A stretch of 64,000 bases of DNA from a virus, in IMG/VR virus record IMGVR_UViG_3300035703_000033, positions 1 to 64,000 of that record; one strand, written 5' to 3'. Below the pieces are notes generated by a model, which worked only from the letters and a program-made list of their open reading frames with translations, made no database searches and was not told where the DNA came from. Shown here one piece after another: positions 35,256-49,421 of this stretch (position 1 is the stretch's first letter; the number at the start of each line of letters is the position of its first letter). The translations under genes and the position numbers were made by a program.

Positions 35256-36800
35256 ATGGCAACAGTAAACAAAAACTTTAGAATTAAAAATGGTTTGGTT
35301 GTTGAGGGATCAACAGCTACCGTAAACGGCGAGGATATCTTAACCAGATCCCAAGCCGATCAATCTTATATAGTCAATTTAATTGGCGGTACAGCAACTT
35401 CACAAAATACACCAGATACTGTTGTTAAAAGAGACGGATCTGGCAACTTTGCTGCAGGAACAATTACAGCAAACCTTACAGGTGATGTAACTGGTACAGT
35501 TTCAAGCATTTCTAACCACGATTCAGATGATTTATCAGAAGGTTCTTTAAACCTATATTTCACAGATGCTCGTGCAAGAGCTGCTCTATCAAGCGGAACA
35601 GGTATAGATTATAACTCATCAACAGGTGTAATAGCTGTTGATAACACAATTGCGACAAAGACATACGCAGATAATGCAGCAGAGTCAGCAGTAAATGCTC
35701 TCGATACAGATGATATCGAAGAGGGAGCATCTAATTTATACTTTACAAATCAGAGAGCGCTTGATGCAACAGCGGCTGCTTATGACGCAGCAGGTTCTGC
35801 TTCAACAGCACAGACTGCAGCACAAGGCTATACAGATTCTCAGCTAGAAGATTATACAACAACAGCACAGCTAGATACAGTTATTGATAATCTAGGATAT
35901 TTAAAGTCAGCAGACCTTACAGGATATGCAACAGAAGGATATGCCGATGGCGCAGCATCTAATGCACAATCAGCAGCAGAAGCAAATGCATCTACATATA
36001 CAGATAATGCCATAAATGCTTTAGATACAGACGATATTGAAGAGGGTACAGTAAATAAGTACTACACAGACACTAGAGTTTTATCATGGCTTTCTGATAA
36101 AGGTGGAACTGGAATTGATATTGACTCTGTAAGTGGTCAAATATCTATAGATAATACAGTTGCAACAACATCTTATGTCGATACAGCAATTAATAATCTT
36201 GTTGATGGAGCTCCAGGACTCCTAGATACTCTAAATGAGATTGCAGCAGCAATTAATGATGATGCAAATTACTTTACAACAGTAACAAATGCAATTAATG
36301 CTAAGCAGAACAACTTAACAGCTGGCGCAAATATTGATATCACAAACGATACAATATCTGTAACTGGTTTAGATACAGATGACGTTGCAGAAGGCACAAA
36401 CCTATATTTCACAGATGCCCGTGCTCGTGATGCAGTAGATGGAACAGACCGCTCATTTACATCTGTAGCAATTAATGAAGTTTCAAAGGAAGTTGCTGCA
36501 ACTACTGGTAATATTGCAACAGCAGCAGCCACAACAGCATATTCTTGGCTAAAGACAGATTATAGAAGCGCCAAGTTTATGGTTAAAATTAAGAATGGCA
36601 CACATACAGAGGTTTCTGAAATTCTCGTAACTCTTGATACTTCTGATAATGTTTATCTAACAGAATACGGAATGTCTTCAACTAGCGGAACATCTCTTGG
36701 AACAATTTCAGCAGATGTCAGCTCAAATGATGTAAGAATCCGTGTAACACCAGCAAACAACAACTCAGAAGTTATTGTAGCTGGAACACTATTAATATAA
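35256..36800 (+). CDS. tail fibre protein with TDD..EG..NLYFT repeats
   Basis: Four (T/S)DD.(E)EG..N.Y(F/Y)T repeats; AP..LDTLNEIA motif; YRSAKF C-terminal domain. Confidence 0.85.
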   Translation: MATVNKNFRIKNGLVVEGSTATVNGEDILTRSQADQSYIVNLIGGTATSQNTPDTVVKRDGSGNFAAGTITANLTGDVTGTVSSISNHDSDDLSEGSLNLYFTDARARAALSSGTGIDYNSSTGVIAVDNTIATKTYADNAAESAVNALDTDDIEEGASNLYFTNQRALDATAAAYDAAGSASTAQTAAQGYTDSQLEDYTTTAQLDTVIDNLGYLKSADLTGYATEGYADGAASNAQSAAEANASTYTDNAINALDTDDIEEGTVNKYYTDTRVLSWLSDKGGTGIDIDSVSGQISIDNTVATTSYVDTAINNLVDGAPGLLDTLNEIAAAINDDANYFTTVTNAINAKQNNLTAGANIDITNDTISVTGLDTDDVAEGTNLYFTDARARDAVDGTDRSFTSVAINEVSKEVAATTGNIATAAATTAYSWLKTDYRSAKFMVKIKNGTHTEVSEILVTLDTSDNVYLTEYGMSSTSGTSLGTISADVSSNDVRIRVTPANNNSEVIVAGTLLI

Positions 36801-36865
36801 TTAAATAAAAGGCTAGGGGAGAGCCAGAAATCTCCCCAAAATCAAATTCGGGGGATAGGGAACTC

Positions 36866-37204
36866 GTGACAACAAACAATAAAGATTTTAAAGTTAAGAA
36901 TGGCCTTGTAGTTGAGGGTAATCAAATAACACTAGGAGATACTCCAGTGGCCTTCAATACCTCCACAAGCAAATTAGAGATTTATATAAATGGCGCTTGG
37001 CAGCCAATAGCATTTACTTCAGATATTCCAGATGTACCAGAAATTACATTTATGGATATTGGATTAGCTATTGACTATAATGGTGATCCAATATATACAG
37101 TTCAGGCTAACGGTGTAGTAACCTCAGCCACAAAATTCGCAGATGGGGGAACTCCATCAACATCTTCTTTTGGTATGACCTTTGACTCAGGTTCTATCAA
37201 TTAA
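36866..37204 (+). CDS. virion structural protein
   Basis: KDFKVKNGL N-terminus shared with 35256 gene. Confidence 0.7.
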   Translation: MTTNNKDFKVKNGLVVEGNQITLGDTPVAFNTSTSKLEIYINGAWQPIAFTSDIPDVPEITFMDIGLAIDYNGDPIYTVQANGVVTSATKFADGGTPSTSSFGMTFDSGSIN

Positions 37205-37234
37205 GAAGACAAAATGATATAATAAGGAGTAATT

Positions 37235-39598
37235 ATGGCAACAGTAAGAATTCAACTAAGAAGAGGCACAGCCGCTGAATGGACAGCCACAAACCCTGTC
37301 TTGGCCGCTGGCGAAATGGGTCTGGAGACAGACACTGGCGATTTTAAATTTGGTAATGGTACAGACACATGGAGCAACCTTGCATATTCATTAGGTAATG
37401 CAATAGATGACTACATTCCTTTATCTGAAAAGGGTGTAGCTGACGGAGTTGCTACCCTAGATTCATCAGGTTTAGTACCACTAGCACAGCTTCCAGGGGC
37501 AGCAGCTTTGGATGCAGAGGTAAGCTCAGCAATTTCTGATCATAATTCAGATACCACAAATGTACATGGTATAGCTGACACATCGATATTAGTAACAACA
37601 TCAGGAACACAAACATTAACTTCAAAGAGCTTAACTTCACCAGCTCTTACTGGAACACCTACCGCTCCAACAGCAGTAGTAGGAACAGATACAACTCAAA
37701 TTGCTACAACTGCATTCGTACAAGATGCAATCGAAGCAGTTGTAGGTGCAGCTCCAGCAGCATTAGATACATTGGCTGAAATTGCAACATCTTTAAATGA
37801 TGATGCGGATTTGGCTGGAACATTAACAACATCAATTTCAGAGAAGGTAGCCAAGTCTGGCGATACAATGTCTGGAGCTCTTGATATGGGGTCTAACAAG
37901 GTTACAAATCTTGCAAGTCCTACAACAATTTATGATGCAGCAAATAAGTTTTATGTAGATTCTAGATCAGCAGCAGATGTCGGAGGACACGCAAGCACCA
38001 CAACAAATGTTCATGGAATCGCAGATACTACACAATTAGTAGTGCAGTCTGATGAAAGATTAACAAACGAAAGATATCCTGTTCCTTTATCTGTTACAGA
38101 AGGCAAGATTGCTAATGCTGCTGTTACAGAATCAAAGATTGCAGATAGCTCAGTATCTAATTCAAAGCTTGCAGATGGATCAGTTACTACTGTAAAGATT
38201 GCAGATGATTCTGTTAGCACAGCAAAAATTGCTGATAATGCAATTTCTACAGATAAAATTGCTGATGCTGCTATAACAAATGCTAAAATAGCAGGAAACT
38301 CTATAACTGCTTCTTTAATGCAGGACAATTCAATAGATACAGCTGCAATAGTTGACAGTGCTGTAACTTCAGCTAAAATTGCAATTTCAGCAGTTGAGGA
38401 ATCAAAAATTGCAGATGATGCAGTTTCTACTTCTAAGATTCTTAATTTAGCTGTCACAGAAGATAAAATTAACACATCAGCTGTTACAGAAGGCAAGATT
38501 GCTAATGCTGCTGTTACAGAAAATAAAATCGCAGATGGTTCTGTAACTTCAGCTAAGATTGCAAATGGATCTATAGTTAATGAAGATATTTCAACTACTG
38601 CAGCAATTGCTCAGTCTAAAATTGCAGATTTAACAACAGATCTTGCAGCCAAAGCACTTGATTCAGATCTTGATGCACATATAAATGCAACTACTTCGGT
38701 ACATGGAATTGCAGACACATCTGTGCTTGCAACAGATTCTGATGTAAGTGCTGCACAGACAGCTGCAGAGGCGCATGCAGATTCTGCAGTATCTACACAC
38801 AATTCTGATACAACTTCTGTACATGGAATTTCTGATACTTCTCAGCTAGCATATAAGAATGCTGCAAATCAGACATTTACAGGAAATATGGAAGTTGATG
38901 GAAATCTTGTAGTAGATGGAGACTTTACTGTAAATGGAACAAACTTCTCTGCTTCAGCAACATCAATTGTCATCGAGGACAACATGGTTCAGCTTGCACA
39001 TCAAAATGCTGCAAATACAGTAGACCTTGGTCTTGTAGTTGCATATAATGATGGTTCAGCAAAGCACTCTGGTATTGTAAGAGATGTTTCTGCAGATAAG
39101 TGGAAGCTATTTAAGGGTGTAACAACAGAGCCAACAACCACAGTTGACTTTACACAGGGATCCCTAGATGATCTTCAGGTGAAGAACCTAGATGCTGTTG
39201 CAATTACAGCTACTGGAGCAATTACAGCATCTTCTTCTGGAGTAGTCTTTACAGATGGCACTCAGACAAAAGCTGGAGTTCCGTCTATCACACCAATTGC
39301 AGAAAAGACTGCAAACTATACACTTTCAAGCTTAACAGAAAGAGATACTCTTATTGAGGTAAATCATACAGGAGGAACTGCAGTTACAATTACTGTACCT
39401 TCAGATGCTACTGTAAACTTCCCAGTAGGAACATCAATCGATATTTTAAGAACAAATACTGGAGAAGTAACAATTGCTGGCTCAGGCGCTACAGTGAATG
39501 CTACACCAGGATTAAAGTTAAGAGCTCAGTGGTCAAGCGCAACTCTATTTAAGAGAGCGGCAAACACATGGGTACTATTCGGAGACCTAAAGGCATAA
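37235..39598 (+). CDS. long tail fibre with Mtd-N-like head and 10-aa VTxxKIAxxA repeats
   Basis: IQLRRGTAAEW...NPVLAAGE.G.ETDT; 10-aa repeats; LRAQWSSATL...W...GDL C-terminus. Confidence 0.85.
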   Translation: MATVRIQLRRGTAAEWTATNPVLAAGEMGLETDTGDFKFGNGTDTWSNLAYSLGNAIDDYIPLSEKGVADGVATLDSSGLVPLAQLPGAAALDAEVSSAISDHNSDTTNVHGIADTSILVTTSGTQTLTSKSLTSPALTGTPTAPTAVVGTDTTQIATTAFVQDAIEAVVGAAPAALDTLAEIATSLNDDADLAGTLTTSISEKVAKSGDTMSGALDMGSNKVTNLASPTTIYDAANKFYVDSRSAADVGGHASTTTNVHGIADTTQLVVQSDERLTNERYPVPLSVTEGKIANAAVTESKIADSSVSNSKLADGSVTTVKIADDSVSTAKIADNAISTDKIADAAITNAKIAGNSITASLMQDNSIDTAAIVDSAVTSAKIAISAVEESKIADDAVSTSKILNLAVTEDKINTSAVTEGKIANAAVTENKIADGSVTSAKIANGSIVNEDISTTAAIAQSKIADLTTDLAAKALDSDLDAHINATTSVHGIADTSVLATDSDVSAAQTAAEAHADSAVSTHNSDTTSVHGISDTSQLAYKNAANQTFTGNMEVDGNLVVDGDFTVNGTNFSASATSIVIEDNMVQLAHQNAANTVDLGLVVAYNDGSAKHSGIVRDVSADKWKLFKGVTTEPTTTVDFTQGSLDDLQVKNLDAVAITATGAITASSSGVVFTDGTQTKAGVPSITPIAEKTANYTLSSLTERDTLIEVNHTGGTAVTITVPSDATVNFPVGTSIDILRTNTGEVTIAGSGATVNATPGLKLRAQWSSATLFKRAANTWVLFGDLKA

Positions 39599-39608: not shown

Positions 39609-40946
39609 ATGGCAATTAATAAAAGATCAGGAACAGGTTCTTCCGCACAGGATAACTTTATCGGACCAAATCCAGTTACTGGATTAACAGCAACAGATGT
39701 TGGTTCTGGAAGAGCATACAACGATGGTAGAATTGATTTGTCTTGGACAAACCCGTCTACTGGAAATACTCCAACAGGGTATAGAATTATTCGTGGTGGA
39801 ACTGAAATAGCAACAGTAGCTCATCCTAATAATACATACTCAAATACTGGGCTTTCTTCAGCCACTTCATATTCGTATGTAGTTCGTGCATATGATGATT
39901 ATGCTACAGCAGCAGATTCAAATACTGCTAGTGCTACAGCAACAACAGTTCCAGCTACAATGAGTGCTCCAAGTGCTACAGCTGGAGTTGATAAGGACAC
40001 ATTGTCTTGGACAGCACCAGCAAATGGTGGTTCAGCAATTACACTATATAGATGGACATCAAGCGACGGAAAGACTGGAACATCTACTGGAACATCAGTT
40101 GATATTTCTCAAGAAGCAAACACTGCACAAACATATCAAGTTAGAGCAGAGAATGCTAACGGAGCAGGAGTGTATTCTGGAAATTCAAATCAGGTTACAA
40201 CCCAGGCCCCAAGCTTCTTCGGTCCTCCAAGCTTCTTCGCCCCTCCAGGGTTCTTTGCCCCTCCAGGGTTCTTCGCCCCTCCAGGGTTCTTCGCCCCTCC
40301 AGGGTTCTTTGCCCCTCCAGGGTTCTTCGCCCCTCCAGGGTTCTTCGCCCCTCCAGGGTTCTTCGCCCCTCCAGGGTTCTTTTCTCCACCAAGCTTTTGG
40401 AAGTCTGTTGGAATTAACACTTTGATTAGAACACCTGGCGGAATGGTTTCTGCAGGACAGTTGGAAATTGGAGATGAGGTAATTGGTTTACGTATACCAG
40501 GTATACCAGATAACTATTGGTTACTTGATGACGGTTCATATGGCTCATACTCAGATTTTGTAATATCAGAAGAGCAATTAAATAATGCAGAAGAGACAAT
40601 TGTAACTGTTACAGGTAAGAGACTTCATGAGAATGCTGGAGCTGCAGCTGTTAATGGTGATATTTATACTATTAACCACTACATTCTAGCCAAGAGAAAT
40701 GGTGAAATTAAGTCTTTGAATGTTAAGGATTTATTGTCAGATGATCTTATATATAACTATCAGACAAAAGATTTTGTTCCAATAGAATCTCTTGAGATAA
40801 ATGAAGAAATTACAATTCAATCATATTCTATAAACGTAGAGCCATGGGACTTCTACTTTACAGAAAACGGTTTAACCTTTGATATGCAGGCGCTATCAGA
40901 GTCTCTGTCTGGATCTGATGATCCAGATGGTTCTGGCCCCCTATAA
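39609..40946 (+). CDS. FN3-domain protein with (FFAPPG)n repeat and C-terminal Hint-like domain
   Basis: Two FN3-like units (LSWTNP...Y.VRA; LSWTAPANGGSAIT...VRAENANG); 10 hexapeptides; Hint blocks SVGINTLIRTPGG...LEIGDEV, TINH, SINVEP.D.YF. Confidence 0.85.
   Translation: MAINKRSGTGSSAQDNFIGPNPVTGLTATDVGSGRAYNDGRIDLSWTNPSTGNTPTGYRIIRGGTEIATVAHPNNTYSNTGLSSATSYSYVVRAYDDYATAADSNTASATATTVPATMSAPSATAGVDKDTLSWTAPANGGSAITLYRWTSSDGKTGTSTGTSVDISQEANTAQTYQVRAENANGAGVYSGNSNQVTTQAPSFFGPPSFFAPPGFFAPPGFFAPPGFFAPPGFFAPPGFFAPPGFFAPPGFFAPPGFFSPPSFWKSVGINTLIRTPGGMVSAGQLEIGDEVIGLRIPGIPDNYWLLDDGSYGSYSDFVISEEQLNNAEETIVTVTGKRLHENAGAAAVNGDIYTINHYILAKRNGEIKSLNVKDLLSDDLIYNYQTKDFVPIESLEINEEITIQSYSINVEPWDFYFTENGLTFDMQALSESLSGSDDPDGSGPL
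40215..40394 (+). repeat. 18-bp tandem repeat x10 encoding FFGPPS-(FFAPPG)8-FFSPPS
   Basis: TTCTTYGCCCCTCCAGGG units directly visible. Confidence 0.97.
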
Positions 40947-40953
40947 AATATAG

Positions 40954-41493
40954 GTGAAATTTAAAGTAACAAGTACTGGTCAGGAGATAGAGAAATCTAT
41001 CTCCTATCAGTCTTTCCCAGAAGAGTTATATAATGAGGGTATATGGGGTCATTTTGCATTTATAGAAGATAAAGAAATGAATATTCGTGTTATATGTTCT
41101 GCTTATAACAATGATAGATATTCTCCAGGTACTGTTGTCGTATCGAATAAAATATTTAATGATTTTCCAATTGCTCAAAGTGCATGGAATATAAGTAATA
41201 AAATTAGTAGAATGTATGTTGATCCGTTTTATAGAAATAAAAAGGTTGCAACTTATAGTGTTATAACAAATGATATGTTAGCTAGAAAAATGGGTTATGA
41301 AATATGGTCTAATATATACGGAGAAAAAGGCGGTACTATAGCAGGCGACCAACTTTATAATAAAATATACGATTTAGGTTTTGAGGTAAAGAAAGCACAG
41401 ATAGACCTAAACGATATTTTTCAATATAGAAATTTTTCACACCCAATACATTACATAGATAAGAGACCAGTTTATGATGAATCAAGTCTATAG
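40954..41493 (+). CDS. GNAT-like acetyltransferase
   Basis: RMYVDPFYRNKKVAT resembles GNAT motif A; T.AG..L. Confidence 0.6.
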   Translation: MKFKVTSTGQEIEKSISYQSFPEELYNEGIWGHFAFIEDKEMNIRVICSAYNNDRYSPGTVVVSNKIFNDFPIAQSAWNISNKISRMYVDPFYRNKKVATYSVITNDMLARKMGYEIWSNIYGEKGGTIAGDQLYNKIYDLGFEVKKAQIDLNDIFQYRNFSHPIHYIDKRPVYDESSL

Positions 41494-42049
41494 CAAAACC
41501 AAATTTTTAAAGAAAGAAGTCAATTTTGACTTTGATATAAAAAATATAAAAGATATGTCTTTTAAAAAAGATGAGTTATTTTTTGTTGATAATGGAAATC
41601 TTAATAAAAATAACGAAATTGTTTATAAATCAAAAAATATATTTACTATATACAGCAGAGACATCCACAGCCTATATAAAAGTATATCTAGTCTATTAGA
41701 TGAATCTTGTGATTTATATGAAATAAAAAAAGATATACAGAACTATATGATTTATGGCAAAATTTCAGAGTATGGTGAACATAATAGAGGAATATGGTAT
41801 GATTTTCCAGGAATAAATATTCCATACTTACACGGGTTTTTCTTCTTTGACTCCAGCTATGAGGTTAACTTTAAAAATCAAAATAATTTAGTTAAAGAAT
41901 TAATAAATACCAATACAATTATTATCAATAAGCCGACAGATTTAATAAACATTAAATCAGAAAAAGAGTCAGAGGTAATTGAATTCTATATAGTCCCTAT
42001 TGATATGTTAAAACATAATGAACCAGGCGTATGGGTTCCAATATTATAA
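41474..42049 (+). CDS. hypothetical protein, possible degenerate DSBH/2OG fold
   Basis: LHGFFFFD spacing similar to 2OG oxygenases but no HxD. Confidence 0.6.
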   Translation: MMNQVYSKTKFLKKEVNFDFDIKNIKDMSFKKDELFFVDNGNLNKNNEIVYKSKNIFTIYSRDIHSLYKSISSLLDESCDLYEIKKDIQNYMIYGKISEYGEHNRGIWYDFPGINIPYLHGFFFFDSSYEVNFKNQNNLVKELINTNTIIINKPTDLINIKSEKESEVIEFYIVPIDMLKHNEPGVWVPIL

Positions 42050-42084
42050 AACAAATGATATAATCATATCCAAGAGAAAGAGGC

Positions 42085-42786
42085 GTGATGTTAGAAAATG
42101 CAGAGTACCTAGCAACTGGAATAGTTGTATATAGAGATGTTTTTAAAAAGGAACATAACTATGTAGAGAGATTAGAAAAGGCTTTAGGGTCAGTAGAAGA
42201 AAATAGATACGGTTGGAAGCCAGGGTATACTGGCTACGGAGCAAAAAATCTTAATTATAGAGATTGTTTTGATTTTAAGATTAAGCATAATGAAGACGGC
42301 TCTCTAAGCGCACATATGGACTGTATTAAAAAAGAAGATCAAAACGAAACAGACAAAGATTTAATTAGAATTTGGGATGATGCATATTATGCACAGGTTC
42401 CACCAGTTGACGACTATAGAAGTATGTTTAGCCTGGCACCATTAAAATATTGGGAATCTTTTAATTTTATTAAGTATGGACCAGGACAGCATTTCCAGGT
42501 ACATTCAGATCATGGATATTCTTATACGTGTGTTCTTTCTTCAGTTGGGTATTTAAATGATGATTATGAAGGCGGAGAGCTTTATTTTGATAAGCTTAAC
42601 CTAAAGATTAAGCCAAAAGCAGGAGATCTTTATCTATTCCCATCTTCATATGTATACTCTCATGCTGCAATGCCAGTCACCTCTGGTACTAAGTACTCTA
42701 TAGTTACAATGTTAGATTATTTAGAAACAGCACATACTCCAGAATATAGAAACCTGGAAGCAAGATACTCTAAAAGCCTTCTTTAA
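42085..42786 (+). CDS. 2OG-Fe(II) oxygenase, P4H-like
   Basis: HSD...YLNDDYEGGEL...PKAGD...H...K. Confidence 0.92.
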   Translation: MMLENAEYLATGIVVYRDVFKKEHNYVERLEKALGSVEENRYGWKPGYTGYGAKNLNYRDCFDFKIKHNEDGSLSAHMDCIKKEDQNETDKDLIRIWDDAYYAQVPPVDDYRSMFSLAPLKYWESFNFIKYGPGQHFQVHSDHGYSYTCVLSSVGYLNDDYEGGELYFDKLNLKIKPKAGDLYLFPSSYVYSHAAMPVTSGTKYSIVTMLDYLETAHTPEYRNLEARYSKSLL

Positions 42787-43481
42787 TGTATTCTATAACA
42801 GCCTATAATATAGGAGGTTTAGCTACCATTAGTCAGTCTCCAGTAAAAAGAGATTGGATGGAAGATACATATGATAAGCATGCCTATAATTGTTTCCCAG
42901 TAACAATTACAAATTCATTAGGGTGGAGCATATCTTTTCCAGAAGAAATTTCTTTTATTTGGGATGGCATATCAGATAGTTCAGCAGACCACGTTAAAGT
43001 TTTAAGTGGAGAAAAGTATGTTTCAACTAGAAGAGCTAATGGAACCATAAGCTTTAATTCTGGATTTGGTTTTAAAACACAAAATGACTTAAGCTTGTTA
43101 TGCATGCCAACACCAAACCAGTTTATAAGGGGTGCTCAATGTTTTACTACTTTAATATCAACATCTTTTTTTAATGGAGACTTCCCTATAGTTTGGAAAA
43201 TTACTGAGCCTATGATAAAAATAGTAATTCCTGCAAACACGCCAGTTGCTAATATTATTCCTATATCTTTAACAGAATTACAAAATTCTGAAATAAATTT
43301 TGAACCAGTAAGCAATATGCCATCCAGTAAATGTCCACCAGAATTTGCTATAAAAGCTGTTGAGAAAGCATACCAGACTGGCGGATGGACAAATTTTTAT
43401 AGAGATGCAGTAGATGCATGCGGGAACAGTATTGGGTCGCATGAAATAAAATCAATAAGATTGAAGGTAAATAATGCCTAA
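42786..43481 (+). CDS. DUF6065-like protein
   Basis: RDWM...AY.C.PV...N..GW; WK.T; P..TPV..IIP. Confidence 0.7.
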   Translation: MYSITAYNIGGLATISQSPVKRDWMEDTYDKHAYNCFPVTITNSLGWSISFPEEISFIWDGISDSSADHVKVLSGEKYVSTRRANGTISFNSGFGFKTQNDLSLLCMPTPNQFIRGAQCFTTLISTSFFNGDFPIVWKITEPMIKIVIPANTPVANIIPISLTELQNSEINFEPVSNMPSSKCPPEFAIKAVEKAYQTGGWTNFYRDAVDACGNSIGSHEIKSIRLKVNNA

Positions 43482-44187
43482 AATAACATTTCATTCAAAT
43501 AAAACTTATAATCAACCAGGACATGAATTAAATCCTAAACCAGCAAAGAAGAGCGTTCCTCAATGGTTTTCCGAATCAAGCAGGTACTGGTTTCCAGAAG
43601 TAAAAGACTCTCTTTCATTTAAAGCTTGCCCAGCATTAGTAGATGCATTTCTTGCAGGTTATGTTTTAAAAACTCCATGCGACATATATTTCCAAAAAGA
43701 GTCTAGCTCTGATGTTTTTAAGCACACTGATATATTTAAAGTTTATAAAGAACCAGGATATGATGATTTTTGTTGTTCAAGACCAGATATGCCAGGGTTT
43801 CCCAAGCCACACGGATTTGATAAACATTTTCATTGGTTTCCTAATTGGATGCCAGGGCTTGAGCCAGGCTACAGCGCTTTATATGTTCATCCATTAAATC
43901 GTTTTGATCTACCGTTCATCACCGTCTCTGGTATAATTGATAACGATAAGATGAATACCCCTGGTTTAATGCCTTTCTTCCTTAAAGAAGGTTTTGAAGG
44001 TCTGATTCCAAAGGGAACTCCATTTGTTCAGATAATTCCATTTAAAAGAGAAGATTGGGAATCAGAAGAGCAGATGTATTCCATAGAAGAGATATTTGAA
44101 AGACATAATTATCAAGCAAATAAGTTTAGAGTTCCAGAGGGCGGGGCTTATAAGAAAAAAGTTTGGTCAAGAAAGAGGTATGATTAA
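43474..44187 (+). CDS. DUF6065-like protein (second copy)
   Basis: P.PAK..VP.WF, K.CP...D....GY, HPLNR, SGIID.D, KGTP..Q.IPFKR. Confidence 0.65.
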   Translation: MPKITFHSNKTYNQPGHELNPKPAKKSVPQWFSESSRYWFPEVKDSLSFKACPALVDAFLAGYVLKTPCDIYFQKESSSDVFKHTDIFKVYKEPGYDDFCCSRPDMPGFPKPHGFDKHFHWFPNWMPGLEPGYSALYVHPLNRFDLPFITVSGIIDNDKMNTPGLMPFFLKEGFEGLIPKGTPFVQIIPFKREDWESEEQMYSIEEIFERHNYQANKFRVPEGGAYKKKVWSRKRYD

Positions 44188-44906
44188 TGAATATGAAACG
44201 TTGGGACACTAGCGGTAATTTAGCTAACTTTAATGCTAAGTCTATAACTCCATCTGGATTTTTTGGAGATTCAGATAAAAATATAGTTGAGGTTGAAGAT
44301 TTTATTACAGAAGAAGAAAATAATATATTTTTAGAGTTTGCAAGAAAAAATTCTTCTTTTGATGAAACACCAACAGAGTTTAATGAAAATGGCAATCTTA
44401 TTTATGACGAAAGACCGTGGGTAAATAGAGTAGCAACTGGAGAGACTCTATTGAAGAGTGGACCACACGTGATACCAGTTCTTACACATATGGTTACAAG
44501 ATTTCAAAAAATAATTGAAGATTTTTTTGATGTAGAAGTTACTCCTACAGGACCAGCAATTGTTAGGTGGCCAGTTGGAGCAAGACAAGAGCCACATGCA
44601 GATAAAGAGTTGCATGAGGGCCCAGATGCAGGAAAACCAAATTCTTTCCCGTGGTATGATATTGGAACTGTTTTTTATTTTAATGATGATTATGAGGGTG
44701 GAGAATTATATTTTCCAAAACAAGGTGTTGAGTTTAAGCCAAAAGCACGAGCTGCATATTTTTTCCCAGGCGATATGAACTATATTCATGGAGTAAGGCC
44801 AATAACAAAGGGATGTAGATACACTGCTCCATATTTTTGGACAATAAATAAGTTACCAGAAAAATATAATGGCCCAAAGGAGTTTAATTATGTGCCACAT
44901 AACTAA
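44187..44906 (+). CDS. 2OG-Fe(II) oxygenase, P4H-like
   Basis: HAD...YFNDDYEGGELYF...HGV...RY. Confidence 0.92.
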   Translation: MNMKRWDTSGNLANFNAKSITPSGFFGDSDKNIVEVEDFITEEENNIFLEFARKNSSFDETPTEFNENGNLIYDERPWVNRVATGETLLKSGPHVIPVLTHMVTRFQKIIEDFFDVEVTPTGPAIVRWPVGARQEPHADKELHEGPDAGKPNSFPWYDIGTVFYFNDDYEGGELYFPKQGVEFKPKARAAYFFPGDMNYIHGVRPITKGCRYTAPYFWTINKLPEKYNGPKEFNYVPHN

Positions 44907-45615
44907 ACATAAGGAAGAATGTTTTACAATTGAGCATTTTTTAACAGAAGAAGAATGTAAAGCTATTATTTCGTATACGGAGTGGTTAGCTAGCAATAAC
45001 ATTTTAGAGTGGAATCAAATATCGTTTTATGATTCATTTGCAATGGGCTTTTGGGAAGAGGATCCAACTGGTGGCTGTGAGTTATTTGGACTTCCCAAAA
45101 ATTATTTTCATGGTGTTTTAAAACAAAAAATAAAAGATGCTTGTGAAAATGCTTTAGGAAAAGATTTAGCTGAGGTTAGTTATCATGCTCAAAAATGGAA
45201 AGATGGAGCATATGCATCATTTCATTCCGATAACTCTGACGAGCATGGAAACCCTTCAGAGTTTGAAAGAAGTAAGTATGCTGCATTTATCTATCTTAAT
45301 GAAGACTTTAAAGGTGGAAATTTAAATTTTAAACATCACGATGTAAACATAAAACCAAAAGCTGGTATGCTTGCAGTTTTTGCAGGCGGGTATACAAATG
45401 AACATGAAGTTACAAAAGTTCATGGAGGTACTCGTTATACCGTAGGATCATTTTGGGATAACGCAGATGCTGTTTATACTGAAGAGCAAATTAAAGAAAG
45501 AGAAGAAAGATTAAAGAAAACTAGAGCTGAGCAAGATTTAACTTATCAGCAGTGGGCAAAGCAAAAAGAATTGGGAATAACTCAAGACTATGTTGGAAAA
45601 TACGGTGAAGTATGA
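44890..45615 (+). CDS. 2OG-Fe(II) oxygenase, P4H-like
   Basis: HSD...YLNEDFKGG...HEV...RY; AAGGAG RBS before ATG 44890. Confidence 0.92.
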   Translation: MCHITKHKEECFTIEHFLTEEECKAIISYTEWLASNNILEWNQISFYDSFAMGFWEEDPTGGCELFGLPKNYFHGVLKQKIKDACENALGKDLAEVSYHAQKWKDGAYASFHSDNSDEHGNPSEFERSKYAAFIYLNEDFKGGNLNFKHHDVNIKPKAGMLAVFAGGYTNEHEVTKVHGGTRYTVGSFWDNADAVYTEEQIKEREERLKKTRAEQDLTYQQWAKQKELGITQDYVGKYGEV

Positions 45616-46469
45616 ATAGAATAGAAATTTATCCAAGAGTAGTTGTGTATAAAAATACGCTACCTAGATGGAAAGAGTATGTAGATCTTTTAAAAAAGTC
45701 TGAATCAGAGCCACCAAGATACTACTTCAAGGATTGGGAAGATTGGTATGGTTTTGGAAAAATGATGAATCTATCAATGAATAATCCAAATGTTTCATAC
45801 AATATTGATTCTGATGATGAATATGCAAAACTACAGCAAGATTTTTTACAAGATGTAACAGATGCCTATTATAATGTTACAGCAGATTATGTAAAAACAT
45901 ACGGCATCTCTTTACCAAATTGGGTCAATAATGGTATATCGATTTGCAAATATTGGGAAAGCCCTAAGCAAAATGAAATGGCAATGCACTATCATACAGA
46001 TTATGTTGGCGCAAATGCAGATGCCCCAGGTAAAAAATTTGCTATTACTTGTACAATTTATATTAATGACGATTATGATGGCGGAGGACTATCATTTCTA
46101 AGGGAGGATACTGGTGATGTTATTGACTATAAGCCAGAGGCTGGAGATATAGTTGTATTCCCATCAGGAGATCCTATTACTGGAGCTTCTCATTATTTCC
46201 ACGGCGTAGATAGAGTCGATAATGGAGAAAAGTATTTTATAAGATGTTTTTGGTCATATGAGTTTGAAGGTACAAAAGAGTGGCATGAAGGTGTTGAAAA
46301 GTATGGAAAAGATATATGGGAAGATATGCAGCTTGAAAAAATGAAAGAGGATATAAAGTCTGGTAAATGGCATAGATATCTTGTCATGCCTGGTGAGGAA
46401 GACCCAAAGAAAGAAAGGTCTACCCCATTCTTTTTAAGGGATAAAGATGCTTATAAAAAAATTAGATGA
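45612..46469 (+). CDS. 2OG-Fe(II) oxygenase, P4H-like
   Basis: HTD...YINDDYDGG...FPS...HGV...KY. Confidence 0.92.
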   Translation: MNRIEIYPRVVVYKNTLPRWKEYVDLLKKSESEPPRYYFKDWEDWYGFGKMMNLSMNNPNVSYNIDSDDEYAKLQQDFLQDVTDAYYNVTADYVKTYGISLPNWVNNGISICKYWESPKQNEMAMHYHTDYVGANADAPGKKFAITCTIYINDDYDGGGLSFLREDTGDVIDYKPEAGDIVVFPSGDPITGASHYFHGVDRVDNGEKYFIRCFWSYEFEGTKEWHEGVEKYGKDIWEDMQLEKMKEDIKSGKWHRYLVMPGEEDPKKERSTPFFLRDKDAYKKIR

Positions 46470-47061
46470 GAATATTATCTATTATGAAAATGTATTAGAT
46501 AACCCATATGAATTTATTGAAAAAATAGAAAGTTTAGATATATCTAATAATAATTCAAGCCATATTAGCAAGTGGGAAAAGTGGAGTGCAAGTAATGCTG
46601 ATCAGCAGTACGGCATTTCTAAAAATGGTAGATTTTCTAATATGCATTACAGCACTGCGGAAGATATAGAAACCTCATTAATTTCGTATAAAATTAAAGC
46701 AATATCTGATTTATGTTTTGCTAACTATAAAGCTAACACTGGAGTGGATATGCTTAAGTTACCAGATTACTTTAGTATTAGGAAGTATGATACTGGAGCA
46801 GACATGGGAAAGCACGTGGATTCAGAGGATCCAACAGATAAGTCTCACCCAGTAGTTTCTGGAGTTCTTTATTTAAATGATAATTACGAGGGTGGAGAAA
46901 TTTACTTTCCAGAACAAGAAATTAAAATAAAGCCAAAAGCTGGAAGTATGATCATGTTTCCATCCTATAGACCATACTTTCATCACCCATTAGCAATTAC
47001 TAAAGGAAATAAATACATGATTCCATTTTTCTGGTATCCATTAGAAACGGTTTGGGAATAA
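46447..47061 (+). CDS. 2OG-Fe(II) oxygenase, P4H-like
   Basis: HVD...YLNDNYEGGEI...PKAGS...HH...KY. Confidence 0.92.
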   Translation: MLIKKLDENIIYYENVLDNPYEFIEKIESLDISNNNSSHISKWEKWSASNADQQYGISKNGRFSNMHYSTAEDIETSLISYKIKAISDLCFANYKANTGVDMLKLPDYFSIRKYDTGADMGKHVDSEDPTDKSHPVVSGVLYLNDNYEGGEIYFPEQEIKIKPKAGSMIMFPSYRPYFHHPLAITKGNKYMIPFFWYPLETVWE

Positions 47062-47068
47062 ATGTATA

Positions 47069-47728
47069 ATGAAAGCAAAACAAAATTTTTGGTCAACTCT
47101 ATATGAAAGGTCACAAACAAAAATGATGTACTTACCCAATGTTCTTGGAGATAGCTGTGTTTATTTTAGAAATACTATCTCTGAACCACAAAAATTAATA
47201 GAATTTATTGAAGAGTGCGAAAAAGATCAATCAACACATAAGTACCTAACCAGCTGGTCAGAGATGACTGACTCTATTATGTTTAAAAAGTTTTTGCTTG
47301 AAGAAAGCGATATATCAAAAAGGAATAAACAAAAGCTTCTTTATATATATAATAGCTTTAAGGCTGGGATAGACTATTGTAAAGAACATTATTCTAATTT
47401 TGCTAAACAAGAAACATCAGATATAAAGCCTTTATATCTATTTAAGTCTAAGCCACTATCAGAAGGAGAAAGAGATCAGGAGTACTCTTTGCCAGATAGC
47501 TCACAATCTATTTCTGTTTATTTGATGATGAATACAGAAGCTGAAGGTAAGGCATTCTGTTTAAATAAAGAAAAGTCTATATATATCTACCCAGAGCCAT
47601 GGAGTATTGTTATGGTTCCAGATAATCTTTCACACTCAGAAGGCATCAATGCTAATAGTGAGTTGTATTATTTAAAGACAAAGTTTGAGCTAGGGGCAGA
47701 AAAGCTGCAATGCAGTAATCTGCTATAA
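47069..47728 (+). CDS. degenerate 2OG-Fe(II) oxygenase-like protein
   Basis: Same architecture (YF.N....P..LIEFIE, Y..MN...EG, PEPWS....P....H) but no HxD. Confidence 0.6.
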   Translation: MKAKQNFWSTLYERSQTKMMYLPNVLGDSCVYFRNTISEPQKLIEFIEECEKDQSTHKYLTSWSEMTDSIMFKKFLLEESDISKRNKQKLLYIYNSFKAGIDYCKEHYSNFAKQETSDIKPLYLFKSKPLSEGERDQEYSLPDSSQSISVYLMMNTEAEGKAFCLNKEKSIYIYPEPWSIVMVPDNLSHSEGINANSELYYLKTKFELGAEKLQCSNLL

Positions 47729-47735
47729 TTAAATA

Positions 47736-49421
47736 ATGTCATATTTAGCATCAGTACTCAAAGACTACCCAGTGGGATTCTGGCCACTTTCTTCAAGTGC
47801 AGAGGATAAGTCTGGATGCGGAAATGACGGGGTTGTAAGTGGCACACATCAGTTCGGCAAAAATTCTTTAATACCGTACTCTGGTGAATCAACAAGAATA
47901 GCTGGATCATCGTATATATCAATACCGCTAGATAAAGATTATTATTCTTCTTCTGTTTTGCCAGCAATTGCAAATAGCTCAAGTTCAACAAAAGAGTTTA
48001 CTATAGAGCTATGGTTTAAGCCAGAGTCTGATTTCTTACAAGAGTCTCCTTTGTTTGCTGACGTACTAAACGGCACTGGAATTTTTTATCAAAACGGTAA
48101 TATAATATTTAAAATAGAAGACGTTTCGTTAGAGTATACATTAAGCAATATAAATAAATCTTTATATATCGCATGTATTTATGGTGTTAATAGTATGTCA
48201 ATATATGTTGACGGAGAAATTGTTGCTACAAAAAATACAGACGGTTTTAAATTTGAGGCAGAGGGTGTAGATTTTCAGGTTGGCCCAGTCGTTGGACCGT
48301 CGGATTCATTTTTAATTAATGGAATTTCTGTTTACAGGTATGCATTAAGCTCAGATCAAATATATGGAAGATTTTCTAACTTATATAATATACCTCCAAT
48401 ACAAATAGCAGATCCAAATAATGGTTCATTATTTGAGATTAAAAATAAGGCATATGGTAGAAAATTTACATTTAGTTATCCAATCGATAAAGACTGGTCA
48501 GAAATAGCAGAAAGCCCTGTAAGGCGCAATGAAGGTTACGGGTACATAGAACTAAGCCAAACTGATGGCGAGGTCTCTAAAGAGCTTATAGACGTTCTAT
48601 CAATACCATCTATGGAAGAGTACAACCACTCAGTAATAGAATGGGAGGGAGACAATGGAGTATCAATCTATATATCTCAAGATAACTCTACTTTCAATGA
48701 ATGCAAAAATGGTCTTCCTCTTCCAATATCTGATTTTACAAAAAGTGTTATTTATTTAAAGATAAAATTTACTTCAAGTAATGCTCAGCGCTTTAATCCA
48801 AGATTACATAAATTAAATATATCTTTCTTTAAAGATGTAAGAATTTATTCAGAAAATAGCGCCAGCTATATTGCAAAGTCAACGGGCGGAAGCCATGATT
48901 TTGGTTTCACGTGGAACAATAAGCCAATACTCTCACAGTCTAAATATAACGGTCTACGGGCAGAGGCTAAATTCAGTTTATACACAGACAGAGATGTCCA
49001 TACCCTAGAAACCTTTTATACACCAGATTCTCTTGAGGCAGGATCATTATTTGATCAGCTTTCATGGAATGGGGCGGGAACACTAAGTAATCCCAATATC
49101 CTAGCCCTATATATCAACGGAGAAGACAAGACATCAGAAACATCAGTCTCTGGCTTATTTGAGGTAGGACAATTACACCATGTTGTAGTAGTCCTATCAG
49201 ACTCAATTACTGAAGAAATAGTATTTAATGATGGATCAAATGAGGCCCTATATCAGTATATAACCATATATGAGAGCCAAATGGATGCAGTTACTGCACA
49301 GGCTCATTATGAGATGTATGTGGATAGTGTCTCTACTATTGCCGTCGGCGGGTCACTGTCAATGACAGAAAATTCAATAAACTACTATGATAATGATTGG
49401 GTAGTGATACAAAATATTTAA
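47736..49421 (+). CDS. LamG/concanavalin-like virion protein
   Basis: MSY...VL.D.P.GFWPL...D.SG.GN.G, FTIELWFK, IYVDG, Y.YALS. Confidence 0.8.
   Translation: MSYLASVLKDYPVGFWPLSSSAEDKSGCGNDGVVSGTHQFGKNSLIPYSGESTRIAGSSYISIPLDKDYYSSSVLPAIANSSSSTKEFTIELWFKPESDFLQESPLFADVLNGTGIFYQNGNIIFKIEDVSLEYTLSNINKSLYIACIYGVNSMSIYVDGEIVATKNTDGFKFEAEGVDFQVGPVVGPSDSFLINGISVYRYALSSDQIYGRFSNLYNIPPIQIADPNNGSLFEIKNKAYGRKFTFSYPIDKDWSEIAESPVRRNEGYGYIELSQTDGEVSKELIDVLSIPSMEEYNHSVIEWEGDNGVSIYISQDNSTFNECKNGLPLPISDFTKSVIYLKIKFTSSNAQRFNPRLHKLNISFFKDVRIYSENSASYIAKSTGGSHDFGFTWNNKPILSQSKYNGLRAEAKFSLYTDRDVHTLETFYTPDSLEAGSLFDQLSWNGAGTLSNPNILALYINGEDKTSETSVSGLFEVGQLHHVVVVLSDSITEEIVFNDGSNEALYQYITIYESQMDAVTAQAHYEMYVDSVSTIAVGGSLSMTENSINYYDNDWVVIQNI

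What the first reader, a model, noticed from the sequence alone, without database searches (positions are those of the whole stretch)
39609..47728. Candidate phage protein-modification or RiPP-like system: FN3-(FFAPPG)n-Hint precursor plus ten-gene tailoring cluster
Seen: the last gene of the fibre block encodes two FN3-like domains, then ten tandem hexapeptides FFGPPS-(FFAPPG)8-FFSPPS, then a Hint-like domain. It is followed by closely packed co-oriented genes: a GNAT-like protein, five intact P4H-type 2OG-Fe(II) oxygenases, two degenerate oxygenase-like genes and two DUF6065-like genes. Established: P4H enzymes hydroxylate Pro in Pro-rich repeats such as X-Pro-Gly; Hint domains self-cleave via an ester intermediate; multi-core repeat precursors with adjacent tailoring enzymes are the layout of RiPP loci; Phe-Phe/Pro-Pro-rich cores occur in cyclic peptides such as antamanide. 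Inference: the repeat is the substrate of the cluster. The product is either a hydroxylated/acylated Pro-Phe filament displayed on the virion via FN3 domains, or released (possibly cyclic) hexapeptides.
Basis: partly seen in the sequence, partly recalled or inferred. Interest (0 to 1): 0.92.

Follow-up and report, generated by a model that had tools for sequence, protein, structure and literature searches.

The report
Phage Phe-Pro repeat protein with hydroxylases
An uncultured 110-kb freshwater phage ends its tail-fibre genes with a protein carrying ten Phe-Phe-x-Pro-Pro-x units and a self-cleaving Hint cap, followed by five collagen-hydroxylase-type enzymes; repeat and enzymes go together in about a hundred related phage fragments, so the repeat is a testable candidate substrate, not a RiPP precursor.

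Summary
Gene 39609-40946 encodes FN3, a weaker FN3-like domain, FFGPPS-(FFAPPG)8-FFSPPS (nt 40215-40394), then a true Hint domain (AF2 pLDDT 89; best PDB matches BIL domains, inteins, Hedgehog) with Ser1 and TxxH but no terminal His-Asn. Five PF13640 oxygenases follow, each with HxD...H, closest to P3H1/P4H. One dead oxygenase copy (g11) and two DUF6065 genes (dUTPase-like fold) are confirmed. The GNAT-like gene is a lead only; g3 is not shown to be oxygenase-like.

In about 100 related viral contigs an aromatic/Pro repeat protein always precedes the cassette. Pro-Pro-rich repeats come with a median of 5 oxygenases, FGFTP repeats with 0. In at least nine loci a second repeat protein elsewhere is also followed directly by an oxygenase.

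Best reading (0.45): a virion appendage protein whose repeat prolines are hydroxylated and whose Hint cap cuts itself off at K265|S266. All loci belong to one phage lineage, and no chemistry is shown. The RiPP or cyclic-peptide reading is not supported.

Known relatives are PBCV-1 P4H, the Syn9 dioxygenase array with its dUTPase-fold protein (Iyer 2010), and BIL/Hedgehog Hint domains. This scan had already noted the same system on other DNA (at least 79 genomes).

The parts
35256..39598 (+). Tail-fibre block upstream (three genes: 35256-36800, 36866-37204, 37235-39598); context only
   Evidence: PHROG tail-fibre families and Pfam Mtd_N
39609..40946 (+). Repeat protein 'pre', 445 aa: conserved N-terminus, FN3, FN3-like, Phe/Pro repeat, Hint domain, acidic tail
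   Evidence: homologues in 79+19 viral loci
39720..39902 (+). FN3 domain 1 (aa 38-98)
   Evidence: Pfam PF00041 E 2e-7
39999..40202 (+). Second Ig-like (FN3/PKD-like) domain, weak
   Evidence: Pfam fn3 E 0.005, below cut-off
40215..40394 (+). Ten hexapeptide units FFGPPS-(FFAPPG)8-FFSPPS, 18-bp tandem repeat, 62% GC
   Evidence: contigs of other runs break here
40401..40406 (+). Predicted autocleavage junction Lys265|Ser266
   Evidence: Ser266 aligns with residue 1 (Ser or Cys) of the Hint family; inference from the Hint mechanism
40404..40883 (+). Hint (BIL/Hog-type) domain: Ser1, block B TINH (40668-40679), block F VEPWDFYF (40836-40859), ends GLTFD instead of HN
   Evidence: AF2 pLDDT 89; Foldseek 2lwy, 6y75, inteins, 1at0; 92 relatives; Pfam on relatives
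40954..41493 (+). g2, 179 aa, possible GNAT-fold protein; present only in the Ser1-Hint sub-clade (L009-L024) and L042
   Evidence: no Pfam or PDB hit
41474..42049 (+). g3, 191 aa, unknown family; up to three copies in FGFTP-repeat loci
42085..42786 (+). g4, P4H-type 2OG-Fe(II) oxygenase (H140-S-D142...H193); the type always nearest to repeat proteins
   Evidence: Pfam PF13640 1.2e-15
42786..43481 (+). g5, DUF6065, dUTPase-like fold with invariant Cys36
   Evidence: Pfam 5.8e-28; AF2 pLDDT 88; VIA Z 8-10 to dUTPases
43474..44187 (+). g6, second DUF6065-like paralogue
   Evidence: PHROG 7084 4.6e-31; HMM 1.3e-70
44187..44906 (+). g7, P4H-type oxygenase (HAD at 137)
   Evidence: Pfam 1e-6
44869..45615 (+). 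g8, P4H-type oxygenase (HSD at 119)
   Evidence: Pfam 3.7e-11
45612..46469 (+). g9, P4H-type oxygenase (HTD at 128)
   Evidence: Pfam 1.9e-10
46447..47061 (+). g10, P4H-type oxygenase (HVD at 123)
   Evidence: Pfam 2.1e-11
47069..47728 (+). g11, oxygenase homologue without HxD and without the basic 2OG-binding residue (pseudo-enzyme)
   Evidence: hhalign 96.8% to the oxygenase profile; no HxD; no invariant His
47736..49421 (+). g12, Laminin_G_3 (concanavalin-like) protein that closes the block before the portal gene (49816-51411); context only
   Evidence: Pfam 1.6e-12; conserved position

Best explanation
The gene at 39609-40946 encodes a virion appendage or decoration protein of a large siphovirus-like phage related to Stanwilliamsviridae. 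It is built from five pieces:
- a conserved N-terminus that probably anchors it to the particle;
- two Ig-like domains;
- a hydrophobic, polyproline-like stalk of Phe-Phe-x-Pro-Pro-x units, whose length varies between relatives;
- a C-terminal Hint domain of the Hedgehog/BIL type;
- a short acidic tail.

Proposed steps:
1. (Inferred from fold and motifs.) The Hint domain carries out an N-to-O acyl shift at Lys265|Ser266, and the ester is resolved. The 20-kDa cap is removed and the repeat becomes the C-terminal tail. That is the state encoded directly in most relatives, which lack the Hint.
2. (Inferred from gene linkage and enzyme family.) The co-transcribed late genes encode five anciently diverged P3H/P4H-like 2OG-Fe(II) oxygenases. 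They hydroxylate prolines, and possibly other residues, of the repeat. The g4 type is the core enzyme.
3. The two dUTPase-fold DUF6065 proteins, the dead oxygenase copy g11, g3 and the GNAT-like g2 are accessory factors of unknown role.

Hydroxylation would make a very hydrophobic Phe/Pro polymer more soluble and stiffer, or change its stickiness.
For: Structural context:
- The fibre genes, pre, the cassette, the LamG gene and the portal gene are all on one strand, with gaps of -38 to +35 nt and no convincing terminator.

Hint domain:
- The fold is confirmed, with Ser1 and TINH present and HN absent.
- 92 relatives among 1.84 billion proteins match the domain, nearly always at or near the C-terminus; in the 17 read in full it always follows a low-complexity, mostly Pro/aromatic, repeat.
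- BIL domains mainly cleave, and Hedgehog HhC uses only the first acyl shift (PMC7664689).

Oxygenases:
- PF13640 with an invariant HxD...H.
- The profile hits P3H1 (1.7e-13), Bacillus P4H, PBCV-1 P4H, EGLN1 and LH3.
- Five starred orthologous clades each hold one window paralogue.

Linkage:
- In 79+19 related loci the gene before the cassette always carries an F/Y+P repeat, although unit and C-terminal module vary.
- Among 58 non-identical homologues with at least 8 kb downstream, Pro-Pro-rich repeats (n=51) have a median of 5 oxygenases and 2 DUF6065. FGFTP repeats (n=5) have a median of 0 oxygenases.
- In at least nine loci a second, different repeat-bearing protein elsewhere is directly followed by one or two oxygenases; four of the five placed in the tree lie beside the g4 clade, with weak support.
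- This protein is the only F/P-repeat protein in the 109.6-kb genome.
Against: - No chemistry: nothing shows hydroxylation, cleavage or presence in the virion.
- All loci share the same portal family and gene order, so the co-occurrence may reflect one ancestral arrangement. The repeat-type/enzyme covariation rests on few independent transitions.
- The genome has four more PF13640 genes and a third DUF6065 away from the repeat protein (27416; genome 89919+91071, 102859, 106504).
- DUF6065 with dioxygenase arrays exists in cyanophage Syn9 without any Phe/Pro repeat.
- DUF6065 is a stand-alone gene in 32 of 301 alphaproteobacterial genomes.
- Most relatives have Gly-free repeats, so the classical X-Pro-Gly rule does not explain the link.
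- For PBCV-1, the viral P4H precedent, no Hyp was found in virion proteins (PMC7019647).
Confidence: 0.45

Rival explanations
1. The oxygenase/DUF6065 cassette acts on something other than the repeat. Candidates are other fibre or capsid proteins, host proteins (as bacterial PHD enzymes act on EF-Tu), or a small molecule or peptide metabolite, as Iyer et al. proposed for cyanophage arrays. In this reading the repeat is an unmodified sticky linker or stalk, and its adjacency is inherited gene order.
For: - There are extra oxygenases and a DUF6065 elsewhere in the genome.
- The Syn9 array with a DUF6065 homologue (gp43, 5e-16) follows tail-fibre genes but has no F/P repeat.
- Iyer et al. 2010 read such arrays as secondary-metabolite machinery.
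- All loci belong to one lineage.
- Of the 17 Hint-family members read in full, those outside this protein family have poly-Pro or other low-complexity linkers, so a low-complexity repeat before the Hint is a family trait in itself.
Against: - Oxygenase number follows the Pro-Pro content of the repeat.
- A second repeat protein at another position is again followed directly by an oxygenase in at least nine loci.
- The enzymes are closest to protein prolyl/lysyl hydroxylases, not to small-molecule or nucleic-acid oxygenases.
- My P4H-type profile hits none of the Syn9 array genes, so that array is built from other families.
Confidence: 0.33
2. Hedgehog/BUBL-like ligation. The ester formed at Lys265|Ser266 is not hydrolysed but attacked by a specific nucleophile (an amine or hydroxyl of another virion protein, a lipid or a cell-envelope component). 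The Phe/Pro tail then becomes covalently anchored. The GNAT-like g2 might assist the transfer.
For: - The domain is of the cleavage-only type (Ser1, TxxH, no terminal Asn) and is the last domain of the protein, followed only by a 20-residue acidic tail, as in Hedgehog.
- The top fold matches include the Tetrahymena BUBL BIL2 domain.
- g2 is found only in loci with a Ser1-type Hint (L009-L024, L042).
Against: - Most relatives have no Hint at all and end in short tails or Cys-rich knots, which argues that the cap is dispensable and simply removed.
- Some Ser1-Hint loci lack g2 (L033, L089-L091).
- No acceptor is identifiable.
Confidence: 0.12
3. RiPP-like system: the ten hexapeptides are cores that are modified, excised and released, possibly as cyclic peptides.
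For: - Multi-copy identical units lie next to tailoring-type enzymes.
Against: - The carrier is a 445-aa protein with two Ig-like domains in the late structural operon.
- Relatives carry the same repeat at the end of 790-960-aa proteins.
- Pfam or PHROGs find no peptidase, cyclase, transporter or recognition domain in the ten genes.
- Units abut without spacer or cleavage motifs.
- Repeat units drift freely (FFxPPx, FFPP, FFP, YFPP, FGFTP) while the architecture stays.
Confidence: 0.03

Closest known systems
Chlorovirus PBCV-1 prolyl 4-hydroxylase (A085R, PDB 5c5t) and that virus's Pro-rich repeats
   Same: A virus-encoded P4H-family enzyme together with virus-encoded Pro-rich repeat sequences. 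The window's oxygenase profile hits 5c5t at 2.3e-9. [quoted passage not shown]
   Different: PBCV-1 has one enzyme that is not linked to a substrate gene; its role is unknown and no Hyp was found in virions. Here five to ten diverged paralogues sit directly behind the candidate substrate, in a tailed phage. They come with DUF6065 partners and a Hint cap, and the repeat is Phe/Pro-rich rather than PAPK-like.
Tandem dioxygenase array of Synechococcus phage Syn9 (gp41-gp54; Iyer, Abhiman, de Souza, Aravind 2010, PMC2938197)
   Same: [quoted passage not shown] Syn9 gp43 matches my DUF6065 profile (5e-16), and that array also follows the tail-fibre genes.
   Different: Syn9 has tryptophan halogenases and a JmjC/MINA member. 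Its dioxygenases are not hit by the P4H-type profile, and no Phe/Pro repeat protein lies nearby. The authors proposed secondary-metabolite synthesis, not virion modification.
Hedgehog/Hog C-terminal autoprocessing domains and bacterial intein-like (BIL) domains
   Same: Hint fold (2lwy, 6y75, 1at0). The Hint is the protein's last domain. It has an N-terminal nucleophile and TxxH, and lacks the elements needed for splicing, so cleavage or transfer is expected.
   Different: Ser instead of Cys at position 1, terminal TFD instead of HN, no sterol-recognition region, and fusion to a Phe/Pro repeat of a phage structural-module protein. Sister proteins use Cys1 with ...VHNK-stop and lack the block-B His.
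Collagen P4H/P3H and plant hydroxyproline-rich glycoproteins or mussel foot proteins (analogy)
   Same: Batteries of P4H/P3H enzymes that modify Pro in repetitive structural proteins. P3H1 is the best PDB sequence match (1.7e-13).
   Different: The repeat is not Gly-X-Y collagen. No glycosyltransferase lies in this cassette. The analogy is from general knowledge and was not tested.

Membership tests
HINT superfamily (Hedgehog/intein fold) | Hint beta-fold | tested here: met
   AF2 model pLDDT 89, pTM 0.83. Foldseek PDB: BIL 2lwy E 1.9e-7, BIL2 6y75, many inteins, Hedgehog 1at0, all prob 1.0.
HINT superfamily (Hedgehog/intein fold) | Nucleophile (Cys/Ser) as first residue, and block B TxxH | tested here: met
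   Ser266 aligns with Ser/Cys of 31 relatives. TINH lies at aa 354-357.
HINT superfamily (Hedgehog/intein fold) | Sequence match to a curated Hint model | tested here: inconclusive
   The window's domain has no Pfam hit. Nine of 32 relatives hit Intein_splicing (best 2.2e-6), 6 hit Hint_2 and 2 hit PT-HINT.
Intein (protein splicing element) | Terminal His-Asn followed by a +1 Cys/Ser/Thr of a C-extein | tested here: not met
   The domain ends GLTFD followed by a 20-aa acidic tail and the stop codon. There is no HN and no downstream host domain.
Hedgehog/BIL-type autoprocessing domain | Self-cleavage at its N-terminal junction | not testable with these tools
   Needs expression of wild type against S266A/H357A.
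P4H-type 2OG-Fe(II) oxygenase (PF13640) | Pfam match above the gathering score | tested here: met
   g4 58.7 bits, g7 30.0, g8 44.3, g9 42.0, g10 45.0; cut-off 27.
P4H-type 2OG-Fe(II) oxygenase (PF13640) | HxD...H iron triad and a basic residue for the 2OG C5 carboxylate | tested here: met
   H140, D142 and H193 are invariant in 25 sequences including all five paralogues. HxD is present in each. K or R in the G-x-(K/R)-Y motif was read from the translations. g11 lacks all of these.
P4H-type 2OG-Fe(II) oxygenase (PF13640) | Prolyl hydroxylase activity on a peptide substrate | not testable with these tools
   Only family resemblance is available: P3H1 1.7e-13, Bacillus P4H 5e-13, PBCV-1 P4H 2e-9.
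RiPP biosynthetic locus | Short precursor with leader/core, plus a maturation protease, cyclase or exporter | tested here: not met
   The carrier is a 445-aa protein with Ig-like domains. No peptidase, transporter or RRE family appears in the ten genes.
DUF6065 (PF19541) | Pfam match above the gathering score | tested here: met
   g5 scores 98.4 bits against a cut-off of 26.6. g6 matches only through PHROG 7084 and the family HMM.
Trimeric dUTPase | dUTPase fold | tested here: met
   The top 14 VIA matches include dUTPases of cells and viruses plus one herpesvirus dUTPase-related tegument protein, Z 7.8-10.1. Foldseek E 2e-3, prob 1.0.
Trimeric dUTPase | Conserved catalytic motifs (motif III Asp, Gly-rich motif V) | tested here: not met
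   The only invariant residues in 38 family members are C36, G46 and W201, with no invariant Asp. No sequence match to any dUTPase in the PDB better than E 0.8.
GNAT acetyltransferase (for g2) | Pfam Acetyltransf match | tested here: inconclusive
   No hit for the window protein. The orthologue in L042 scores E 1.2e-3, 19.5 bits, below the cut-off of 20.7. ESM Atlas neighbours are GNAT clusters at 0.95.
Syn9-type phage dioxygenase array (Iyer 2010) | Several diverged tandem dioxygenases plus a dUTPase-fold protein with a conserved Cys | tested here: met
   Five oxygenases in five clades. DUF6065 has an invariant Cys36. Syn9 gp43 hits the DUF6065 HMM at 5e-16.
Syn9-type phage dioxygenase array (Iyer 2010) | Tryptophan halogenases and a JmjC/MINA member in the array | tested here: not met
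   Pfam finds none in 40954-47728.
Collagen-like substrate | Gly-X-Y triplet repeat | tested here: not met
   There is one Gly per six residues, and most relatives have none.

The most novel reading that the evidence does not exclude
The cassette is a dedicated virion-protein tailoring system of a new kind. A battery of distinct hydroxylases rewrites a Phe/Pro polymer on a phage appendage. The Hint cap does not merely fall off: it uses its ester to ligate the modified tail covalently to a partner (another virion protein or a host envelope component), as in Hedgehog or BUBL. This would give orphan phage 2OG oxygenases and DUF6065 their first function, and phages a new way to attach proteins.
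Probability: 0.1. Interest if true: 0.9.

Novelty: new variant of a known kind. Interest (0 to 1): 0.64.

Why it matters
Tandem 2OG-oxygenase genes are among the commonest unexplained 'auxiliary' genes of aquatic phages. They were described in 2010 and attributed to metabolite synthesis. Here a candidate substrate lies right next to them. It is conserved over about a hundred phage fragments and varies together with the enzymes. That turns an open question into a simple experiment: co-express the genes and look for +16 Da. If the reading is right, these genes decorate the virus particle rather than reprogramme host metabolism. Tailed phages would then join chloroviruses and mimiviruses in making hydroxylated structural proteins. 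The cleavage-only Ser1 Hint domain fused to a structural-module protein is also an undescribed use of that fold in phages, and a compact self-cleaving tag candidate.

Tried and rejected
- Complex prediction of g4 (alignment A7) + Fe + the 66-aa repeat segment gave no answer (score 0.00, controls not run). This counts neither for nor against binding.
The neighbourhoods of the Hint-family proteins from outside this protein family (P0006, P0017, P0033 and others) could therefore not be read.
- The search for related loci with P0006 found nothing. Alignment queries A6 and A4 had no usable conserved stretch.
- Phage isolate collection: there was no DNA or protein match for the region, for the repeat protein or for DUF6065. 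Only the portal protein found relatives.
- Bacterial genomes: the DUF6065 protein query found nothing. The alignment query returned six short MAG contigs that look like the same phage group binned into MAGs, so they are not independent.
- Sequence searches of the PDB with profiles of g2, g3, g11 and DUF6065 gave nothing.
- hhalign of g3 or DUF6065 against the oxygenases gave no similarity.
- No RNA holder was listed among public runs.
- Laying contigs of four runs could not give the repeat copy number, because all contigs break inside the array.
- The promoter/terminator scan was at background level.
- Literature: 'DUF6065' gave 0 papers. I found no paper on hydroxyproline in tailed-phage virions or on Hint domains capping phage structural proteins.
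- The antamanide resemblance was considered and set aside as compositional only; no prolyl-oligopeptidase-type gene is present.
- A nucleotide/DNA-modification reading (dUTPase fold plus oxygenases) was considered. It is weakened by the lack of dUTPase motifs and by the protein-hydroxylase affinity of the enzymes.

Full report
WHAT IS THERE

The window is the first 64 kb of a 109.6-kb IMG/VR virus record estimated 92% complete. Its portal protein is 59% identical to those of about 127-kb Streptomyces phages of the Stanwilliamsviridae. Portal, prohead protease and major capsid protein lie just downstream of the finding. Near-identical DNA is held by 20 public runs of 8 studies, from freshwater, aquatic, subsurface, sediment and soil metagenomes.

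The genes from 35256 to 51411 are all on the + strand. From the repeat gene to the LamG gene, neighbours overlap by up to 38 nt or are at most 35 nt apart. The terminator scan is at background level. This looks like a late structural operon.

THE REPEAT PROTEIN (39609-40946, 445 aa)

FFGPPS-(FFAPPG)8-FFSPPS is aa 203-262 (nt 40215-40394), followed by FWK and Ser266.
- The DNA is an 18-bp tandem array: 9.3 copies, 94% matches, 62% GC in a 42% GC gene.
- Pfam confirms one FN3 domain (E 2e-7). The second Ig-like domain is only weakly FN3/PKD-like (E 0.005).
- Contigs of four other runs all stop inside the array. The unit count of a short-read assembly should therefore not be taken as exact.

THE C-TERMINAL DOMAIN IS A REAL HINT DOMAIN

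- It has no Pfam hit of its own.
- A search of 1.84 billion representative proteins finds 92 relatives. The domain matches nearly always at or near the C-terminus of proteins of 150-1100 aa; in the 17 read in full it always follows a low-complexity repeat, mostly Pro- and aromatic-rich (FGFTP, YFPP, poly-Pro).
- Nine of 32 aligned members hit Pfam Intein_splicing and six hit Hint_2.
- The AlphaFold model (pLDDT 89, pTM 0.83) matches the Clostridium BIL domain 2lwy, the Tetrahymena BIL2 domain 6y75, many inteins and the Hedgehog domain 1at0, all at probability 1.0.
- Ser266 occupies position 1. Block B is TINH (aa 354-357). The domain ends GLTFD instead of His-Asn, followed by a 20-residue acidic tail.
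- Such domains cannot splice. BIL domains mainly cleave, and Hedgehog uses only the first acyl shift (PMC7664689).
- Cleavage at Lys265|Ser266 is therefore the likely event. This is an inference, at roughly 0.7.
- Sister phages carry a second variant with Cys1, no block-B His and ...VHNK-stop.

THE GENES BEHIND IT

- Five genes are PF13640 oxygenases above the Pfam cut-off. H, D and H are invariant, an HxD is present in each, and each has K or R in the 2OG-binding position.
- Their joint profile hits prolyl 3-hydroxylase 1 (1.7e-13), Bacillus P4H, PBCV-1 P4H, PiuC, EGLN1 and lysyl hydroxylases.
- They are only 19-28% identical to each other. A quick tree puts each in its own well-supported clade together with orthologues from distant loci. 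They are old, separately retained paralogues, not recent duplicates.
- g11 is a homologue (hhalign 96.8%) that has lost HxD and the basic residue: a pseudo-enzyme.
- g3 is not detectably related to the oxygenases (probability 2.6%) and has only one nearly invariant His. Calling it a degenerate oxygenase is not justified; there is only a weak language-model lead.
- g2 is a GNAT lead only.
- g5 and g6 are DUF6065. The model (pLDDT 88) has a dUTPase-like fold: the top VIA matches are almost all dUTPases of cells and viruses (one is a herpesvirus dUTPase-related tegument protein), Z 7.8-10.1. The family keeps an invariant Cys and no dUTPase catalytic Asp.

COMPARATIVE EVIDENCE FOR A LINK

Two scans of viral contigs gave 79 and 19 related loci.

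- In nearly all loci with enough flanking DNA the order is fibre gene, repeat protein, oxygenase/DUF6065 cassette, LamG gene, portal.
- The repeat protein always keeps its N-terminus, its Ig-like domains and an aromatic/Pro repeat. The unit drifts: FFxPPx, FFPP/FFP, YFPP, FGFTP.
- The C-terminal end is interchangeable: Ser1-Hint, Cys1-Hint, short tails such as TFGSRFIRSY, or Cys-rich tails such as CSGCIRSYCWQACPSCCGSCGC.
- Among 58 non-identical homologues with at least 8 kb of downstream DNA, Pro-Pro-rich repeats (n=51) are followed by a median of 5 oxygenases (range 0-9) and 2 DUF6065. FGFTP repeats (n=5) are followed by a median of 0 oxygenases and 3 g3-like genes. Spearman rho between PP count and oxygenase count is 0.36, not corrected for relatedness.
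- The oxygenase nearest the repeat protein is of the g4 type in nearly all loci that have oxygenases.
- In at least nine loci a second, different repeat-bearing protein about 9 kb upstream is itself directly followed by one or two oxygenases; of the five placed in the tree, four lie beside the g4 clade and one near g8 (L038, L040, L050, L055, L057, L071, L090, L094, L105).
- In this genome the protein is the only Phe/Pro-repeat protein.

LIMITS

- All these loci share one portal family and one gene order, so the co-occurrence is not a set of independent events. I could not confirm earlier notes of this scan that the set travels between unrelated phages.
- The genome carries four more PF13640 genes and a third DUF6065 away from the repeat protein.
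- One of them (genome 106504-107067) sits next to a PA14 protein with a long PEPSPEPT-type Pro-rich linker. That is either a second candidate substrate or a coincidence.
[quoted passage not shown] Syn9 gp43 matches my DUF6065 profile at 5e-16, and that array also follows the tail-fibre genes. However, no Phe/Pro repeat is nearby, and none of its dioxygenases matches the P4H-type profile.
- DUF6065 is also a stand-alone chromosomal gene in 32 of 301 sampled alphaproteobacterial genomes. In 12 loci it has no P4H-like neighbour within 8 kb, and the few neighbours scanned in four of them are unrelated to each other. The tally includes one unpublished genome, G035; no specific claim rests on it.
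- For PBCV-1, the one characterised viral P4H, no hydroxyproline was found in virion proteins (PMC7019647).

READING

The best-supported model is a virion appendage protein with three properties:
- its Phe/Pro stalk is the substrate of at least the g4-type hydroxylase, and probably of the other paralogues;
- its Hint cap removes itself;
- its mature form resembles the Hint-less proteins of most relatives.

I give this 0.45 as a whole. The main rival (0.33) is that the cassette acts on other targets and the adjacency is inherited. A Hedgehog-like ligation variant gets 0.12.

The RiPP or cyclic-peptide idea gets 0.03. The carrier is a large protein with Ig-like domains in the structural operon. 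Proteins of 790-960 aa carry the same repeat in relatives. No peptidase, cyclase or exporter is present.

NOVELTY

The parts are known kinds:
- a viral P4H with Pro-rich viral sequences (PBCV-1);
- phage dioxygenase arrays with a dUTPase-fold protein (Iyer 2010);
- cleavage-only Hint domains (BIL, Hedgehog).

I found no paper describing their combination. The new elements are a Phe/Pro repeat protein of the fibre module, often Hint-capped, placed directly before a P4H-type battery. This scan had already noted the same system on other DNA: 112 notes in at least 79 genomes. My results agree with those notes on most points.

Noticed in passing
genome beyond the window: G000 106504-107067 and 107304-109340 (L003:1198-1758 and L003:1998-3245): A further PF13640 oxygenase (E 1.7e-11) lies directly upstream of a 678-aa protein. 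That protein has a signal-like N-terminus, a PA14 domain, a long PEPSPEPT-type Pro-rich linker and a hydrophobic C-terminus. It is a second oxygenase / Pro-rich-protein pair in the same genome.
   Followed up: partly
genome beyond the window: G000 89919-90779 and 91071-91763 (L006): Another oxygenase (PF13640, 5e-8) plus DUF6065 (1.8e-9) pair lies far from the repeat protein, in a stretch with no Phe/Pro-repeat protein nearby. The oxygenase falls in the g9 clade.
   Followed up: partly
window 27416-28006 (+): A sixth intact-looking PF13640 oxygenase in the window (E 5e-8), outside the cassette. The gene upstream (26107-26835) has no Pfam family and no Pro-rich repeat.
   Followed up: partly
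L071:22-969 with L071:1256-1927; L055:1433-2029 with 2481-3086; L038:496-858, 867-1427 and 1430-2029; L050:1024-3702 with 4210-4911; L094:2-712 with 718-1206: In relatives, a second locus about 9 kb upstream of the main cassette holds another Pro-rich or Phe/Pro-repeat protein. Some have (PTPVA)n tracts and Cys-rich ends, some have a Hint. Each is directly followed by one or two oxygenases, some of them near the g4 clade in the tree.
   Followed up: partly
L063:645-1583, L026:10001-10834, L037:4774-5754 and many others: The C-terminal end after the repeat is a swappable module: Ser1-Hint, Cys1-Hint ending VHNK-stop, short tails, or about 22-aa Cys-rich tails. The short and Cys-rich tails share an I/L-R-(S/F/A)-Y motif (…RFIRSY, …GGIRFY, …CIRSYCW…). 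This may be a docking motif.
   Followed up: no
L029:3064-5056, L036:11269-13261, L038:10824-12109, L042:9222-10474: Loci whose repeat is FGFTP-type lack the PF13640 battery. They carry two or three copies of the unassigned g3 family right after the repeat protein, followed by a B12-dependent ribonucleotide reductase.
   Followed up: partly
L108 (Synechococcus phage Syn9, NC_008296: 27931-43144): The Syn9 dioxygenase array (gp41-gp54) begins right after the tail-fibre and fibre-assembly genes gp32-gp39. gp43 is a DUF6065 homologue (5e-16). gp36 just upstream has a Gly/Cys-rich low-complexity stretch. GenBank product names in the array ('DNA endonuclease V', 'ferrochelatase', 'minor coat protein') look like mis-annotations of oxygenases.
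   Followed up: partly
L144-L155 (alphaproteobacterial genomes): DUF6065 is a strongly conserved stand-alone chromosomal gene in 32 of 301 sampled Alphaproteobacteria (E about 1e-95). In the four loci whose neighbours were scanned, the neighbours differ. Two loci have long (Thr-Pro)n proteins nearby.
   Followed up: partly
window 40262-40353: Contigs from four independent public runs all end or start inside the 18-bp array. The array is a general assembly breakpoint, and its copy number in any short-read record is unreliable.
   Followed up: yes
window 29594-31528 (+); L036:16138-16653: A class II (B12-dependent) ribonucleotide reductase lies next to the structural block. In a relative a cobalamin adenosyltransferase (PF01923, 4e-47) sits beside the RNR gene.
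   Followed up: no
L009-L024, L042 against L033, L089-L091: The GNAT-like g2 occurs only in loci whose repeat protein has a Ser1-type Hint. Not all Ser1-Hint loci have it.
   Followed up: partly
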